DNA of 64,000 nucleotides from a virus. Shown piece after piece: positions 21,643 through 26,630 of this stretch. The DNA lies in the IMG/VR virus record IMGVR_UViG_3300017917_000400, positions 32,001-96,000 of that record; one strand, 5' to 3'. Within the stretch, counting starts at the first letter, position 1; the number at the start of each line of letters is the position of its first letter. Below the pieces are notes generated by a model. It did no database searches and was not told the DNA's origin. It was given only the letters and a program-made list of their open reading frames with translations. A program made the position numbers and the translations under genes.

Positions 21643-22509
21643 ATGGAAAACCAAGAACAACAAGGAATGAATCCTTTAAAGAAATATTTCAGACAACCAA
21701 AGATATATCTTAAATTACCTAGTAGCGGTAATTTTTATCCCAAGGGTTCAATTGAATTTACACAAAATATGGAATTTCCTGTGTATGCCATGACTGCTAG
21801 AGATGAAATCGCAATTAAAACTCCAGATGCACTAATGAATGGTCAAAGCACAGTTGACGTTATACAAAGTTGCATTCCAAATATTAAAAATGCTTGGATG
21901 ATTCCAAGTATCGACATTGATGCTATTCTTATCGCTATCCGTATTGCTACCTACGGAGAGCAAATTGATCTTGATATCAGTATTCCAAATACCACTATAA
22001 CTAAGACATATACCACAGATCTAAGATTGGCCTTAGATAAACTACTTACTGCTGTCTACGATTCAGAAATTAAAATAAATGATGAATTAACTGCGTTTAT
22101 ACGCCCTATTAACTATGAAGAATTTACTAAAAATTCAATTAAAACCTTAGAGGAACAAAGAATATTCAGCATAGTTAACAGTCAAGAAATGTCAGAACAC
22201 CAAAAAATTGAGCAGTTTAATAAAAGTTTTAAAATTTTAACAGAAATTAATGTTGGTTCTATTGTTAAAAGTATTGTTAAGATTGTTACTCCTGACGGAG
22301 AAGTAACAAATATTGATCATATTAATGAATTTGTCAACAATTCGGACACAGAGTTTTTTAACAAAGTCACAGATCATTTAGAAAAACAACGTGACAAGTT
22401 TACAATGCCTATGTTTAAAATTGTTACTACTCAAGAAGAGCGCGAACAAGGCGCTCCAGACGAATTTGAAACACCAGTATCGTTGGATGCTTCAAATTTT
22501 TTCGCATAA
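21643..22509 (+). CDS. gp26: T4 gp26-like baseplate hub/tail assembly chaperone
   Basis: RQPKIYLKLPSSG; MTARDEI; IDIDAILIAIRIATYGE; ends in NFFA. Confidence 0.8.
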   Translation: MENQEQQGMNPLKKYFRQPKIYLKLPSSGNFYPKGSIEFTQNMEFPVYAMTARDEIAIKTPDALMNGQSTVDVIQSCIPNIKNAWMIPSIDIDAILIAIRIATYGEQIDLDISIPNTTITKTYTTDLRLALDKLLTAVYDSEIKINDELTAFIRPINYEEFTKNSIKTLEEQRIFSIVNSQEMSEHQKIEQFNKSFKILTEINVGSIVKSIVKIVTPDGEVTNIDHINEFVNNSDTEFFNKVTDHLEKQRDKFTMPMFKIVTTQEEREQGAPDEFETPVSLDASNFFA

Positions 22510-22559
22510 AGCTCTTCAACCTTAACCTCGAAGACGCACTGCGAGTCGTTGAAGGGCTT
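22494..22559 (+). promoter_or_regulatory. Programmed -1 ribosomal frameshift signal
   Basis: A_AAT_TTT and T_TTT_TTC slippery heptamers (22494-22503) plus 12-bp stem AAGCTCTTCAAC (22509-22520)/GTTGAAGGGCTT (22548-22559). Confidence 0.75.
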
Positions 22560-22733
22560 GATAAAGAAGTTAAAGCGATTCGTACAGATCTACTAAAAAT
22601 TACCTGGTACATGAGAGGTGGTATCACATTAGATGATGCCTTTGCTCTTACAGTTGAAGATCGTGAGATCATATCAGAGATTATCAAAGATAATCTAGAA
22701 ACTACTAAGAAATCAGGATTACCTTTCTTTTAA
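22500..22733 (+). CDS. gp51-like ORF lacking its own start, probably reached by -1 frameshift from gp26; missing from the ORF track
   Basis: FRIKLFNLNLEDALRVVEGLDKEVKAIRTDLLKITWYMRGGITLDDAFALTVEDREIISEIIKDNLETTKKSGLPFF*; frame opens after TGA at 22467; first ATG only at 22611. Confidence 0.75.
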   Translation, partial: FRIKLFNLNLEDALRVVEGLDKEVKAIRTDLLKITWYMRGGITLDDAFALTVEDREIISEIIKDNLETTKKSGLPFF

Positions 22734-22735
22734 TA

Positions 22736-23176
22736 TTATAGATGAACTGCGTTCATCTGTTCTTCGCTATCGCTCGAACTATTTGTTTCTTTTTAATAAT
22801 AGAGCATTATTAAGTGCGAAGCACTTTAGCATTATCCAGATTGTTCAGTCACACTTTGCCCGCACAGGGCAAAGAAATGAACATTATCCGAGTTGCACAA
22901 TGTCACACAGCAGTAGAGCATTACAGTGGCGGTTGACCGGTACCACGAGCTCCGTCTTCATTCAACGGCGGCATACATTAATCTGCTATCACTAGTGTAT
23001 GCGTGAGGTTTTTCTCCTCTCTTTGGGCCTTTATTCTTTCAAACAGCAAAACTTGGGCAGTTTCAAGTCGTCGTCCTGTTAAGGATAGTTGCTGAGTACT
23101 CTTTACGGCGAGAGATTTCCGTCCCTGCGACCCGCGGTCCAGGTATAAGGGCGCATGAAGTTAGCCTGCGCGAGCT
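22736..23176. ncRNA. ~440-nt non-coding structured element (candidate large ncRNA and/or ssDNA origin)
   Basis: Largest gene-free gap in the window; more GC-rich than its surroundings; at least 10 stems, an H-type pseudoknot and two imperfect direct repeats. Confidence 0.55.
22830..22908. repeat. Imperfect direct repeat pair flanking a hairpin
   Basis: CATTATCCagaTTGttcaGTCACAC (22830-22854) and CATTATCCgagTTGcacaatGTCACAC (22882-22908) around CTTTGCCC-GCACA-GGGCAAAG (22854-22874). Confidence 0.75.
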
Positions 23177-23620
23177 TTAACCGTTTGATTTGGCCTGTGC
23201 TTGCTCTTGAAGACGTTGCCTTAGAATGTTTGAGCCGCCTACTCTGACGTTAATGATACCATTATAGTAATCATCTGTTTCTAATACTCTGCGTTCAAAC
23301 TGTTCTCTTGCCTCTAGATATGACATTTCTGCCTTGGACTTGCAATAATAAAGTATTTCTCTAGTGAATTTTTCTGGACCTAATGCTTGTACATCTGCAT
23401 TTAATCTGTCAGAAGAACCCCAATAGTCGCGCCAATCGCTTTCTACGGTACTTCTTCTTTTAAGTTTACGGCCTTTGAGTGGTGGTTTAGTGCGTTTAAA
23501 CTGTGCTAGTTTTTTGCCTATGTACTTTTGCCCGGTTGTAAGATTGGTTATAAGATAAACAAAACCTATATAACCTTCGGGAATTTCTTCGACTAAACTG
23601 TTTTGATAGTGCCATGACAT
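23177..23620 (-). CDS. Minimal GIY-YIG endonuclease (Seg-like catalytic domain only)
   Basis: GFVYLITN..TGQKYIGKK; YWGSS; FTREIL; E (YLEA); YYN. Confidence 0.85.
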   Translation of the reverse strand: MSWHYQNSLVEEIPEGYIGFVYLITNLTTGQKYIGKKLAQFKRTKPPLKGRKLKRRSTVESDWRDYWGSSDRLNADVQALGPEKFTREILYYCKSKAEMSYLEAREQFERRVLETDDYYNGIINVRVGGSNILRQRLQEQAQAKSNG

Positions 23621-23654: not shown

Positions 23655-23855
23655 TTAGTTTTGGTTTTTTTTACGTGAAGCCTGTATTTCCATTCGCCTT
23701 TTTTTACATAGATCTCTAATTGTTCTTAGATATTCTCTTGCCTGTACGCTAGATCCGTGATAGCCGTAACGTTCATATCGTTCGTTCCAGCGAGAGTACT
23801 CAATAAACGCTTTAACTAAAGAGTCGTGAGTGTCGTCTTTGATATCATCAGTCAT
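23655..23855 (-). CDS. Hypothetical helical protein (66 aa)
   Basis: Overlaps the gp46 stop; basic C-terminal helix ARxxLxxIRxLxKxRRxEIQ. Confidence 0.6.
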   Translation of the reverse strand: MTDDIKDDTHDSLVKAFIEYSRWNERYERYGYHGSSVQAREYLRTIRDLCKKRRMEIQASRKKNQN

Positions 23856-25629
23856 AAACTTCTATATCGTTAGCGTAACTAGTGAACCCGTTTTCTTTTA
23901 TTACCTTGAGCACGTTGTTCACTCGACCCACTAATTCATCCCTATGAGAAATTAGATAGATGTTCTTATTGCGTTCACGGCCCATCTTTTTCAAGATTCC
24001 TAAGGAGTTTTCAACTCCTGCGGCGTCCATGCCCGAATCAATAAGTTCATCTATGAATAAGAGATTGATGTTCTGGTATAACGACTCCCAGACATCGCGG
24101 AATGCCCAACTTAATCCTAAGATTAATCGATTCCTTTCTCCTCGTGACAGGTTATCAAAATCTAAGTCCTGCCCGAGTTGGGTTATTTCTACCGTTAGGT
24201 CATTTTGGAATACAACGGTGTGAGGTAGACCCACCTTATCAAGGTAATAAGTGAGACGATTATTCAAATAAGCAAGATTCTGATCAATAATCTTCTTACG
24301 AATAAACGAATCTTTGTTAGTTAACAGTTTTAATAAGAACTCTTGATGTTCCTTCATAGAATTTAAACTGTTAACTGAATCCCAAGACACTTCTTGTAGA
24401 GCAGTATTTTCTAATTCAACAATCTGTTCTTGATAAGTGTCAACTTCGTCTTGTTTATTTTTTAATTGAACTGCAAGACTTTCTAAATTGCTTCGATGAT
24501 TGTATGCTTCGTTTAAGGTGTCGTAGAACGTTGCGGGTCTGCCGTTGATATCTCCAATACTGTCTAATTCTTTGACAATCAACTCTAGGTCCCCTGTGAC
24601 TTTGGACAAGTATATATCTGCATCAACGAGATTTTTTTCTGCCGCTTTAATCATTTCTCCGTGCTTATGATCGTGCAATTCTTGTTCGCAGGCTGGACAA
24701 GTTTTATTTTCTAGTTGTTCAACTTCTTTACGATATTTTTTTACACTTTTATCTGCTTGCATCACAGCAGTTTCTAATGTTGCACGTTCTTTATTAAGAC
24801 TTTTAATCTTTGCTGATTGCTCGTCATAAATTTTAACTAATTCATGTTGTGCAATTTCTTGATCAATGTCTACTTTAGCCAACTCGTCTATAGCACTTTG
24901 AATTTTTGCAATATCTACATCTTTATTTTTCTGCCACACAGATTGTTTTAATTTTAAACTGTTAATACTCTCTTGAATTTTATCGTTAGATTTTTTAACA
25001 GCATCAATTCTTGCACTTTCCTGTGTAATTTCGTCTTTGGTAATACGAATTTGTTCTTTAAGTTCCTCTGCCTTTTCGCTCAACAGAGTAATACCTAACA
25101 GTTGTTCAATAATAACACGTTGATCGTTAGATTTCATACTTAAAAAAGGTTCAGTATATGTGTTCAATGCTACAACGTGTTTGAACATGTCGTGACTTAG
25201 CCCTAATAATTCGTCAATGTCTTTTTGTGTTTCGCGACTATCGCCTTGGCCTTCGTCGTCAACATCTGCGTTTTCCTGTTCTTGTTCGTCTACATAAAAC
25301 TTTAGTACATTAGGTTTACGACCACGTTCAATTCTATACAGTCTTCCGTCTTTTTCAAACTCAACAGTGACTAACATGTTCTTATTGTTAATTTTATTAA
25401 TAAGATTATCTTTTTTGATGTTAGTCAGTGCTTGTCCGTAAAGCGCATAACTTAATGCGTTTACAATAGTGGTCTTACCCGTGCCGTTTCGAGAGCCGGA
25501 ATCGTCACCTCCTTGGTCCAAGTTCTCGCCTAAGACTAGGGTAAGTTGCTCTTTATTAAAATCTACTGCCTGCGTAGCATTACCTACGCTCATAAAATTT
25601 TTAACTGTTAGATCTTTTATTTTTATCAT
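23848..25629 (-). CDS. gp46: Recombination ATPase gp46 (Rad50/SbcC-like)
   Basis: KNFMSVG; Walker A NGTGKTT; zinc hook CPAC; signature LSRGE; Walker B LFIDE; ISH. Confidence 0.95.
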   Translation of the reverse strand: MIKIKDLTVKNFMSVGNATQAVDFNKEQLTLVLGENLDQGGDDSGSRNGTGKTTIVNALSYALYGQALTNIKKDNLINKINNKNMLVTVEFEKDGRLYRIERGRKPNVLKFYVDEQEQENADVDDEGQGDSRETQKDIDELLGLSHDMFKHVVALNTYTEPFLSMKSNDQRVIIEQLLGITLLSEKAEELKEQIRITKDEITQESARIDAVKKSNDKIQESINSLKLKQSVWQKNKDVDIAKIQSAIDELAKVDIDQEIAQHELVKIYDEQSAKIKSLNKERATLETAVMQADKSVKKYRKEVEQLENKTCPACEQELHDHKHGEMIKAAEKNLVDADIYLSKVTGDLELIVKELDSIGDINGRPATFYDTLNEAYNHRSNLESLAVQLKNKQDEVDTYQEQIVELENTALQEVSWDSVNSLNSMKEHQEFLLKLLTNKDSFIRKKIIDQNLAYLNNRLTYYLDKVGLPHTVVFQNDLTVEITQLGQDLDFDNLSRGERNRLILGLSWAFRDVWESLYQNINLLFIDELIDSGMDAAGVENSLGILKKMGRERNKNIYLISHRDELVGRVNNVLKVIKENGFTSYANDIEVYD

Positions 25630-26630
25630 AGATTATTATAGATAGCCAACAGAACTTTAGGATCGTAACTGTCGCTTTGAATACTGGCAATTTGATTGCT
25701 AACAATTTGATCTACACTTTCAAACTGTTGCACGTCTAAGTTAGTGTTAATTTCTACATCTTTCTTTTCAGGTATCAACGTAAGTTCTCTAATATTTTCT
25801 TGCGCCATATACGTTTCTTTAATAAAACTAGCCTCTTCAAAACTAATATCAATATCAATGCCTACTCGTAGATATGTTTTAGGCAGTATTAGTTTTTCAG
25901 AATTATCAATCAACTCGCTGAGCTTTATAGTCTTAAATTTAGGAGCACCCTCCCATATTTTATAAACAGGAGTCTTGCCGTGTTCTAAAATCATCATACC
26001 CCTATCGTCATCCCACGCATCTGCGTAGTTGTGCGGAAAAGCATTTCCAATATAGACAATATTTTGTTTGGCCTGTCGCTTGTGAAAGTGTCCGCTGAAT
26101 ACATATTCGGGATTTTTAAAATGATGTGCTTGTAATTCTCCATGGTCTGGCATCTGCACCATAGCATTCATCATAAACAACGGAAGTTCAAAGTGTCCAA
26201 ATATGTAACGACTCTTTAATTTCTCCATTTTTTTCCACTCGTCACCTACTAGCCACGGAACCATAGTAACATCATCTATAGTAGTAATGTCGCTGACAAT
26301 AGTGACACCCGGTATATGACGTCCCCAATCAACAGAATGTACATCACGTTTATCTTTGTAATATAAATCGTGATTACCTGGGAAGAAATAAAACTGATCA
26401 AATGCTTTGCCTAATTTTTCTAAACTACGAATGCTACTAACCATAGTCAGCATATTTAGGCTGTTACGATTGTGATGCCAGTCGCCTAGAAATATTCCAG
26501 TGTCACAACCTTCTTTTTTGGCTTCGGCAATAAACCAATCTACGAAATCCTCGCAGTCTTGATTGTGTACAGCAGAATTTGATTTTAGTCCAAAGTGTAT
26601 ATCTGTAAAACAGGCTATCTTTTTAAACAT
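25626..26630 (-). CDS. gp47: Recombination nuclease gp47 (Mre11/SbcD-like)
   Basis: DIHFG, LGD, GNHD, GHFE, SGHFH metallophosphoesterase motifs. Confidence 0.95.
   Translation of the reverse strand: MFKKIACFTDIHFGLKSNSAVHNQDCEDFVDWFIAEAKKEGCDTGIFLGDWHHNRNSLNMLTMVSSIRSLEKLGKAFDQFYFFPGNHDLYYKDKRDVHSVDWGRHIPGVTIVSDITTIDDVTMVPWLVGDEWKKMEKLKSRYIFGHFELPLFMMNAMVQMPDHGELQAHHFKNPEYVFSGHFHKRQAKQNIVYIGNAFPHNYADAWDDDRGMMILEHGKTPVYKIWEGAPKFKTIKLSELIDNSEKLILPKTYLRVGIDIDISFEEASFIKETYMAQENIRELTLIPEKKDVEINTNLDVQQFESVDQIVSNQIASIQSDSYDPKVLLAIYNNL

What the first reader, a model, noticed from the sequence alone, without database searches (positions are those of the whole stretch)
22736..23620. Minimal GIY-YIG nuclease abutting a ~440-nt densely folded non-coding element: candidate nuclease-RNA system
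Seen: the genome is otherwise tightly packed, yet a 440-nt GC-richer gap starts right at the stop codon of a 147-aa GIY-YIG protein. On the minus strand it forms consecutive stems: GCGCA/TGCGC; CCTG-GACC/GGTC-CAGG; an H-type pseudoknot ACGG..CTCT-CG-CCGT-AA-AGAG (~23099-23122); CAGCAA/TTGCTG enclosing TCCT-TAAC-AGGA and ACTTG/CAAGT; GAGG/CCTC; a ~10-bp GCATACA stem (22971-23002); CCGT/ACGG; GTGG/CCAC. Known: Seg and I-TevI GIY-YIG homing endonucleases normally carry C-terminal DNA-binding domains (NUMOD, HTH). This protein has none, but has a basic loop (KRTKPPLKGRKLKRR). Nuclease plus large structured RNA pairs are known for HNH/RuvC enzymes (HEARO/IscB, TnpB). Inference: the element is a co-transcribed ncRNA that may bind or direct this nuclease, or the nuclease acts on the element itself.
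Basis: partly seen in the sequence, partly recalled or inferred. Interest (0 to 1): 0.85.

Follow-up and report, generated by a model that had tools for sequence, protein, structure and literature searches.

The report
Twin-box phage RNA behind nuclease gene
The gene-free gap behind a small nuclease gene of this uncultured T4-like lake phage encodes a real, roughly 437-base knotted RNA; its first third is an RNA motif catalogued in 2010 with no known function, the rest is uncatalogued, and the nuclease looks more like a constant neighbour than the RNA's working partner.

Summary
Observation confirmed. Window 22740-23176 (minus strand) is a GC-richer (46% vs 37%), ORF-free, about 437-nt structured RNA that starts 1 nt after the stop codon of a 147-aa SegE-type GIY-YIG ORF.

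Its first 136 nt are Rfam RF01718, Polynucleobacter-1 (108 bits, E 4e-24). Weinberg et al. 2010 already noted that this motif lies downstream of one gene family. The other 300 nt are not in Rfam but covary strongly: several helices, two pseudoknots, and two 7-nt boxes (GGATAAT) that are identical in 117 of 118 relatives while the word changes (8 words).

- For: in 117 of 117 phage loci picked by RNA pattern, a nuclease gene lies upstream (109 GIY-YIG adjacent, 5 GIY-YIG with another gene in between, 3 an unrelated PD-(D/E)XK endonuclease).
- Against: homologous twin-box RNAs sit in Polynucleobacter chromosomes beside DUF6641 and integrase genes with no nuclease gene recognised nearby. GIY-YIG homologues in Melnitz, P-SSM2 and a Rhizobium phage lack the RNA. 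The nuclease does not co-vary with the RNA or its word. The same word occurs with both nuclease families.

The function is unknown. This scan has reported the same RNA class before on other genomes.

The parts
23177..23620 (-). 147-aa minimal GIY-YIG nuclease ORF (SegE family), stop codon TAA at 23177-23179
   Evidence: ORF. Pfam PF19835, E 3.2e-35, residues 3-123. dN/dS about 0.12.
22740..23176 (-). Full structured RNA, about 437 nt (RNA position p = window 23180 - p)
   Evidence: Conserved over its whole length downstream of homologues. Covariation map. No conserved ORF.
23041..23176 (-). 5' domain = Rfam RF01718, Polynucleobacter-1 RNA
   Evidence: cmscan 108.4 bits (gathering score 37), E 4e-24, model positions 1-141 of 141. 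The only copy in the 104-kb record. Helices covary.
22973..23000 (-). 10-bp covarying hairpin (RNA 180-207) whose loop forms pseudoknot 1
   Evidence: 94% canonical pairs, 42 pair types over 10 pairs. MI pairs 180/207 to 189/198.
22983..22989 (-). Pseudoknot 1, 5' arm (RNA 191-197, ATAGCAG)
   Evidence: Pairs with RNA 267-273. 98% canonical against 20-50% in slid registers, with compensatory changes at 5 of 7 pairs.
22907..22913 (-). Pseudoknot 1, 3' arm (RNA 267-273, CTGCTGT)
22962..22964 (-). Pseudoknot 2, 5' arm (RNA 216-218)
   Evidence: Pairs with RNA 244-246, which lie in the loop of helix 234-238/250-254. 99% canonical, and all three pairs covary.
22934..22936 (-). Pseudoknot 2, 3' arm (RNA 244-246)
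22883..22889 (-). Twin box 1, GGATAAT (preceded by AACTC)
   Evidence: Identical to box 2 in 117 of 118 unique phage RNAs, over 8 different words. Mutual information with box 2 is maximal, and no other column tracks it.
22854..22874 (-). 8-bp hairpin between the two boxes (RNA 306-326)
   Evidence: 97% canonical, 13 pair types
22831..22837 (-). Twin box 2, GGATAAT (preceded by GTGTGAC-N8-ATCT)
22812..22826 (-). Small hairpin with a conserved GC-UUC-GC top; its lower stem covaries
22759..22779 (-). Terminal hairpin 1, with the loop GAGCGA-T-AGCGAA, which is conserved in the phage and the bacterial versions
22740..22758 (-). Terminal hairpin 2 (terminator-like, weak U tract); the convergent plus-strand frame ends at 22733
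   Evidence: Not called by the simple terminator scan.
23655..26630 (-). Upstream same-strand genes: gp47/SbcD-like (25626-26630), gp46/SbcC-like (23848-25629), 66-aa ORF (23655-23855). Syntenic in all relatives.

Best explanation
The gap is a gene for an autonomous non-coding RNA of about 437 nt with several pseudoknots. It has three modules: a 5' module that is the orphan Rfam family Polynucleobacter-1, an uncatalogued core with two pseudoknots and two identical 7-nt single-stranded words (twin boxes), and two terminal hairpins.

Shown: the structure, its conservation, the twin-box identity, and the existence of the same RNA architecture without any GIY-YIG gene in chromosomes of the probable host genus.

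Inferred:
- The RNA is transcribed as the last element of the gp47-gp46-orf66-nuclease operon. It always starts just after the stop codon of whichever ORF precedes it, and no sigma-70-like promoter was found.
- It is released by processing.
- It acts in trans by presenting the same 7-nt word twice, to two identical nucleic-acid sites or to a dimeric binder that is not the nuclease.

The GIY-YIG gene is a SegE-type, homing-endonuclease-like gene that sits in a 'nuclease slot' just 5' of this conserved RNA gene. In the same way free-standing homing endonuclease genes sit beside conserved genes in T4-type phages. It has spread among these phages more recently than its flanking genes diverged.
For: - RF01718 match: 108 bits over the full model.
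- The whole gap is conserved at 70-87% identity in relatives whose gp46 is only about 60% identical at the protein level.
- All helices and both pseudoknots covary: 94-99% canonical against 20-60% in slid registers. G-U 337 against A-C 30 fixes the strand.
- Twin boxes: identical in 117 of 118, 8 words; no cis-complementary column.
- Independence from the nuclease:
  - 17 of 151 Polynucleobacter genomes hold RF01718, as part of a conserved non-coding element of about 500 nt with twin boxes (identical in 9 of 11, 4 words), beside DUF6641 and tyrosine-integrase genes. No GIY-YIG lies within 1.5 kb.
  - GIY-YIG homologues occur without the RNA.
  - Unrelated genes are inserted between GIY-YIG and the RNA in L125, L233, L237, L258, L266 and G156.
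  - Mantel correlation of GIY-YIG against the RNA 5' domain is r 0.10, not significant.
  - No GIY-YIG residue tracks the word.
  - The word AGATAAT occurs with both GIY-YIG and PD-(D/E)XK neighbours.
- Mobility of the nuclease gene: median dS 0.6 against more than 2.6 for gp46 in the same genome pairs, dN/dS 0.12; an island of 79-88% nucleotide identity over the ORF, against 56-70% in gp46 and orf66; and a second nuclease family (PF24608) in the same slot in 3 loci.
Against: - In 117 of 117 RNA-selected phage loci with enough upstream sequence, a nuclease gene lies within 1 kb upstream and none is empty. Sporadic homing endonuclease genes usually leave empty sites, so fixed adjacency may mean a functional tie.
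- All phage loci share one syntenic position, so adjacency and shared ancestry cannot be separated.
- No expression data could be obtained: the transcript ends, the processing and the trans action are all inferred.
- The low dS of the nuclease gene could also reflect constraint on its mRNA.
Confidence: 0.55

Rival explanations
1. This is a functional nuclease-RNA system. The RNA binds, guides or regulates the upstream nuclease, or the nuclease processes the RNA. The twin 7-nt words would act as specificity elements.
For: - The RNA starts 1 nt after the nuclease stop codon.
- 109 of 117 loci have GIY-YIG directly adjacent, 5 more within 0.9 kb, and 3 have an unrelated PD-(D/E)XK endonuclease in exactly the same place. 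No locus lacks a nuclease.
- Both the gene and the RNA are more conserved than their flanks.
- The nuclease has no DNA-binding domain.
- The variable twin words look like short programmable elements.
Against: - Bacterial twin-box RNAs have no nuclease gene recognised nearby.
- The fold of the neighbouring DUF6641 protein matched no solved nuclease.
- Homologous 145-aa GIY-YIG proteins occur without the RNA in cultured phages (P-SSM2, a Rhizobium phage, Melnitz); the family is found in 784 phage records, whose RNA status was not tested.
- There is no co-variation of the protein with the RNA or the word.
- The same word occurs with two unrelated nuclease families.
- Unrelated genes can be inserted between the two.
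Confidence: 0.2
2. This is a cis-acting 3' untranslated element of the gp47-gp46-nuclease operon. It would be a structured block that stabilises the mRNA against 3' exonucleases, times its processing or terminates transcription, with no trans function.
For: - It is always the last element before the terminal hairpins and always abuts the stop codon of the preceding ORF, whatever that ORF is.
- No own sigma-70-like promoter was found.
Against: - About 440 nt with two covarying pseudoknots and identity-covarying boxes is far more than a stabiliser needs.
- The bacterial copies are not behind any ORF: they lie divergent from DUF6641, with about 190 nt of spacer.
Confidence: 0.1
3. It is not an RNA gene at all, but a DNA-level element (replication origin, recombination hotspot) or a missed small protein gene.
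For: - Many public contigs break in or next to this region.
- Single-sequence folding energy is not exceptional.
Against: - Compensatory base changes keep the helices.
- G-U against A-C asymmetry: 337 against 30.
- An Rfam covariance-model hit on one strand only.
- No conserved reading frame.
Confidence: 0.03

Closest known systems
Polynucleobacter-1 RNA motif (Rfam RF01718; Weinberg et al. 2010, Genome Biol 11:R31, PMC2864571)
   Same: The first 136 nt match the full model at 108 bits. The original paper already says most examples lie downstream of one gene family with a possible P-SSM2 homologue, and that the 3' half is not always detected. Here P-SSM2 gene PCMG_00221 is a homologue of the GIY-YIG ORF.
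   Different: The catalogued motif is 141 nt with no known function, and it was then absent from sequenced purified phages. Here it is the 5' third of an RNA of about 437 nt, whose other 300 nt (two pseudoknots, twin boxes, terminal hairpins) are not in Rfam (E up to 10). Some relatives keep the 3' core but replace the RF01718 domain.
Free-standing GIY-YIG homing endonucleases of T4-type phages (SegA-G; SegB inside the T4 tRNA and stable-RNA cluster). This comparison rests on my own knowledge.
   Same: - Pfam SegE_GIY-YIG domain.
- An intergenic position beside a conserved gene, here an RNA gene.
- Much lower synonymous divergence than the flanking genes.
- Another nuclease family in the same slot in some genomes.
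   Different: - No C-terminal DNA-binding domain.
- Apparently fixed rather than sporadic: no empty site in 117 loci.
- Cleavage and homing were not tested.
RNA-guided nuclease modules: HEARO/omega RNA with IscB, TnpB
   Same: A nuclease gene next to a large structured RNA that carries short variable segments.
   Different: - A GIY-YIG or PD-(D/E)XK nuclease, not RuvC/HNH.
- The variable part is 7 nt and present twice, not one guide of 15-20 nt.
- The RNA occurs without the nuclease and the nuclease without the RNA.
- No co-variation between them.
Large orphan structured RNAs of phages and mobile elements (GOLLD, ROOL). This comparison rests on my own knowledge.
   Same: - Several hundred nucleotides.
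- Heavily structured.
- Found in phages and in mobile regions of host genomes.
- Function unknown.
   Different: - No sequence or structure match in Rfam.
- No tRNA genes in the window.
- The twin identity-covarying boxes are, as far as I know, not a feature of those RNAs.

Membership tests
Rfam RF01718 Polynucleobacter-1 RNA | Covariance-model score above the curated gathering score, over the full model | tested here: met
   108.4 bits against 37, E 4e-24, model positions 1-141 of 141, minus strand. Same result on the whole record.
Rfam RF01718 Polynucleobacter-1 RNA | The model's helices are kept by compensatory changes in relatives | tested here: met
   P1, P3, P4, P5 and P6 show changes on both sides in 44 and in 92 sequences.
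Rfam RF01718 Polynucleobacter-1 RNA | Described context: downstream of the GOS11034 gene family, with a possible P-SSM2 (PSSM2_218) homologue | tested here: inconclusive
   The upstream GIY-YIG ORF has a P-SSM2 homologue, PCMG_00221 / gp202. I could not check that this is the same gene as PSSM2_218 or GOS11034.
SegE-type GIY-YIG nucleases (Pfam PF19835) | Domain match above the curated cut-off | tested here: met
   121.5 bits against 25, residues 3-123 on profile positions 1-123 of 123.
SegE-type GIY-YIG nucleases (Pfam PF19835) | GIY and YIG motifs present | tested here: met
   The sequence reads GFVY at residues 18-21 and YIG at 33-35. The downstream catalytic Arg, Glu and Asn were not mapped on a structure.
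Homing endonuclease (Seg / I-TevI type) | Separate C-terminal DNA-binding domain (NUMOD, HTH, zinc finger) | tested here: not met
   Only 24 residues follow the catalytic domain, and Pfam finds no second domain.
Homing endonuclease (Seg / I-TevI type) | The gene is mobile relative to its flanks | tested here: met
   Median dS 0.60 against 2.65 for gp46 in the same pairs (160 pairs in which both values could be computed), and lower than half of gp46's dS in 78% of those pairs. A block of raised nucleotide identity over the ORF. Gene-tree discordance: Mantel r 0.39 with gp46.
Homing endonuclease (Seg / I-TevI type) | Sporadic presence, with empty target sites in close relatives | tested here: not met
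   0 of 117 RNA-bearing loci lack a nuclease gene upstream.
Homing endonuclease (Seg / I-TevI type) | Site-specific cleavage of the nuclease-less allele | not testable with these tools
   Needs a cleavage or co-infection assay.
RNA-guided nuclease systems (IscB/TnpB-omega RNA type) | The nuclease and the RNA always co-occur and co-vary | tested here: not met
   The RNA occurs without the nuclease in Polynucleobacter chromosomes. The nuclease occurs without the RNA. Mantel r 0.10, not significant. No residue tracks the word.
Group I intron carrying a GIY-YIG ORF | Intron core and flanking exons of a host gene | tested here: not met
   No group I match in Rfam at E up to 10. There is no coding sequence downstream on this strand.
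Type III toxin-antitoxin (ToxIN type) | Tandem identical RNA repeats upstream of an endoribonuclease toxin gene | tested here: not met
   The RNA lies downstream of the gene. Only a 7-nt word plus a short context is repeated, inside a large fold.

The most novel reading that the evidence does not exclude
The twin 7-nt words are programmable address labels of a new kind of RNA-directed DNA or RNA transaction. The RNA would hold two identical sites together for a protein that has no recognition domain of its own: the minimal GIY-YIG or PD-(D/E)XK nuclease in the phages, and in the host islands the 188-198-aa tyrosine recombinase, which consists of the catalytic domain alone. The rapid turnover of the word would then reflect a conflict between the phage and the host island. 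Nothing here excludes this. The lack of co-variation with protein residues is even what a mechanism based on base pairing would give. But no target site was found, and the integrase is near the RNA in only about half of the bacterial loci.
Probability: 0.07. Interest if true: 0.9.

Novelty: new variant of a known kind. Interest (0 to 1): 0.55.

Why it matters
An RNA motif that has sat in Rfam since 2010 with no known function turns out to be the front end of a much larger, knotted RNA. That RNA is abundant in uncultured freshwater T4-like phages and is shared with mobile islands of a probable host genus. Its two always-identical, fast-changing 7-nt words are an unusual evolutionary signal: identity covariation, not base pairing. 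This points to a specific partner that has not been found.

The strict 'nuclease slot' in front of the RNA, filled by two unrelated nuclease families, gives a concrete experiment. If the words prove to address a nucleic-acid target, this would be a new class of RNA specificity element. If not, it is still one of the larger orphan phage RNAs with a well-supported fold.

Tried and rejected
- tRNA or tmRNA in the gap: none in the whole window.
- Other Rfam families in the 3' 300 nt: only chance-level hits at E up to 10.
- RF01718 in the variant loci (L034, L065, the L061 group, marine contigs): none at E up to 0.1. These carry a different 5' domain, while the L061 group and L087 show twin repeats.
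- Thermodynamic support: z-scores of -1.4 and -1.6 are not significant, so this was not used.
- A cis partner for the twin words: no column with complementary covariation. The best other mutual information was 0.2-0.44 bits, against 0.62-0.97 between the boxes.
- Nuclease residues tracking the word: none better than the gp46 control.
- Island proteins (DUF6641, integrase and others) in the phage record or the phage loci: none.
- DUF6641 as a hidden nuclease: AlphaFold model at pLDDT 77.5, with no Foldseek match in the PDB at E up to 0.001. No paper mentions DUF6641.
- Own promoter for the RNA: no sigma-70-like site on the minus strand. In the bacterial locus only a weak site, not above the shuffles.
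- Bacterial spread: in 151 genomes sampled across the family, only Polynucleobacter genomes matched.

Full report
**What is there.** On the minus strand the window carries gp47/SbcD-like (25626-26630), gp46/SbcC-like (23848-25629), a 66-aa ORF (23655-23855) and a 147-aa ORF (23177-23620). Then come 441 bases without a credible ORF, up to the end of a convergent plus-strand frame at 22733. Pfam places residues 3-123 of the 147-aa protein in SegE_GIY-YIG (E 3e-35), so there is no room for a second domain. The gap has 45.8% GC against 36.9% for the window. The record is an uncultured virus contig of 104 kb. Its nearest cultured relatives by this gene are the Methylophilales Melnitz phages.

**Part of the RNA is already known.** cmscan gives Rfam RF01718, Polynucleobacter-1 RNA, at 23041-23176 on the minus strand, over the full model, at 108.4 bits against a gathering score of 37. 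It begins one base after the stop codon and is the only copy in the record. The paper that described the motif says most examples lie downstream of one gene family with a possible homologue in cyanophage P-SSM2, that the 3' half is not always detected, and that no example was then known in a purified phage. P-SSM2 does encode a homologue of the GIY-YIG ORF. I could not verify that it is the locus the paper names.

**The rest of the gap belongs to the same RNA.** More than 600 viral contigs encode relatives of the nuclease. In most of the 80 fetched, the whole 441-nt gap is conserved at 70-87% identity. RNAalifold on the 3' 300 nt, and a mutual-information scan over 92 non-identical full-length copies, give these features (RNA position p = window 23180 - p):
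- the RF01718 helices;
- a small hairpin at 161-175;
- a 10-bp hairpin at 180-207;
- pseudoknot 1, between the loop of that hairpin (191-197) and 267-273;
- helices 228-231/261-264 and 234-238/250-254;
- pseudoknot 2, between 216-218 and the loop bases 244-246;
- an 8-bp hairpin at 306-326;
- a small hairpin with a conserved GC-UUC-GC top;
- two terminal hairpins at 401-421 and 422-440.

These helices are canonical in 94-99% of cells, against 20-60% when the partner is slid by 1-3 columns. G-U cells outnumber A-C cells by 337 to 30, which fixes the strand. Single-sequence folding energy is unremarkable.

**Twin boxes.** Two short modules of the form GTGTGAC, about 8 bases, AAYCT, then a 7-nt word flank the 306-326 hairpin. 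The word, GGATAAT in this window (22883-22889 and 22831-22837), is the same in both boxes in 117 of 118 unique phage RNAs, although eight different words occur. Mutual information between the boxes is at its maximum, and no other column in the RNA tracks them, by complement or otherwise. I saw this. Earlier reports of this scan describe the same thing on other genomes.

**Is the nuclease a partner?**

*Evidence for a tie.* I picked loci by RNA patterns, not by the protein. Of 117 non-redundant loci with enough upstream sequence, 109 have the GIY-YIG gene directly in front of the RNA. Five have it about 0.85 kb upstream with another ORF in between. Three have instead a PD-(D/E)XK endonuclease (Pfam PF24608) ending 11-156 nt before the RNA. 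None has an empty slot.

*Evidence against.*
1. RF01718 is present above the cut-off in 17 of 151 Polynucleobacter genomes, mostly in closed chromosomes. There it is the front of a conserved non-coding element of about 500 nt that shares the terminal hairpin loop with the phage RNA and has its own twin boxes (identical in 9 of 11, four words). The neighbours are a divergent DUF6641 gene and often a 188-198-aa tyrosine recombinase. No GIY-YIG lies within 1.5 kb. In a family-wide sample only Polynucleobacter genomes matched.
2. Homologous minimal GIY-YIG genes lack the RNA in P-SSM2, a Rhizobium phage and Melnitz.
3. Pairwise distances of the nuclease do not follow those of the RNA 5' domain (Mantel r 0.10, p 0.11) and follow the 3' domain no better than gp46 does.
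4. No nuclease residue tracks the word better than control columns.
5. The word AGATAAT occurs behind both nuclease families.

**The nuclease gene behaves as a mobile gene.** Between the same pairs of genomes its median dS is 0.6, while that of gp46 is saturated (2.65). Its dN/dS is about 0.12. Nucleotide identity to 17 relatives jumps from 56-70% in gp46 and orf66 to 79-88% within the ORF, then sits at 70-84% in the RNA. Together with the alternative nuclease in the same slot, this fits free-standing homing-type genes settled next to a conserved RNA gene. It does not fit the usual patchy distribution of such genes, so I keep a 20% reading that the tie is functional.

**Mechanism.**
- Shown: the fold, the boxes and the independence from the nuclease.
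- Inferred: co-transcription with the operon, since the RNA always abuts the preceding stop codon and no sigma-70-like promoter was found; processing to a stable RNA; and action in trans through the two identical words.
- Unknown: the partner and the biological role.

**Verdict.** The RNA is an extended, uncatalogued form of a known orphan family. The nuclease is most likely a fixed neighbour. The same class has been reported repeatedly by this scan on other DNA.

Noticed in passing
L235:3963-4484, L254:8819-9385, L232:10497-11018: In three related phage contigs the gene directly in front of the RNA is not GIY-YIG but a 'Phage putative PDDEXK endonuclease' (PF24608, E down to 6e-30). L235 keeps the twin word AGATAAT. 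L232 has a quite different repeated word (about TCGTCAA).
   Followed up: partly
L099-L107 (Polynucleobacter chromosomes), e.g. L107:900-2913: Conserved arrangement: a DUF6641 gene (divergent), about 190 nt of spacer, a twin-box RNA of about 500 nt, variable ORFs, then often a 188-198-aa tyrosine recombinase that is the catalytic domain only. It looks like part of a mobile island. The DUF6641 model (pLDDT 77.5) has no PDB fold match.
   Followed up: partly
window 21643-22733 (+): The 288-aa T4_baseplate-family ORF (21643-22509) is followed by a 40-aa frame (22611-22733). tblastn finds that frame in nearly all relatives, just downstream of the baseplate-family gene on the same strand. Another first-stage note on this genome reads this as a programmed -1 frameshift. 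I did not test it.
   Followed up: no
window 22437-22461 (+): Weak hit to Rfam Ocean-VII RNA (20 bits against a gathering score of 53.5, E 0.006): a GC-rich hairpin inside the 3' end of the baseplate-family ORF, close to the proposed frameshift site. Probably chance.
   Followed up: no
L009, L036, L042, L053 and 18 other loci: 22 of 81 public contigs end within 470 nt after the nuclease ORF, four of them right at its stop codon. Assemblies seem to break where the well-conserved nuclease gene meets the polymorphic RNA.
   Followed up: no
L233:10375-11148; L146:616-1143: Unrelated ORFs (257 aa; 175 aa, no Pfam match for the latter) are inserted between the GIY-YIG gene and the RNA in a few phages. 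The RNA then abuts the stop codon of the inserted gene.
   Followed up: partly
L061, L063, L070-L073, L080; L087:4687-4756: Relatives with a nuclease about 75% identical (and a marine contig) carry an RNA of about 550 nt. It has a different 5' domain (no RF01718) but a homologous core and the twin word ACATGAA. The family is therefore wider than the Rfam model.
   Followed up: partly
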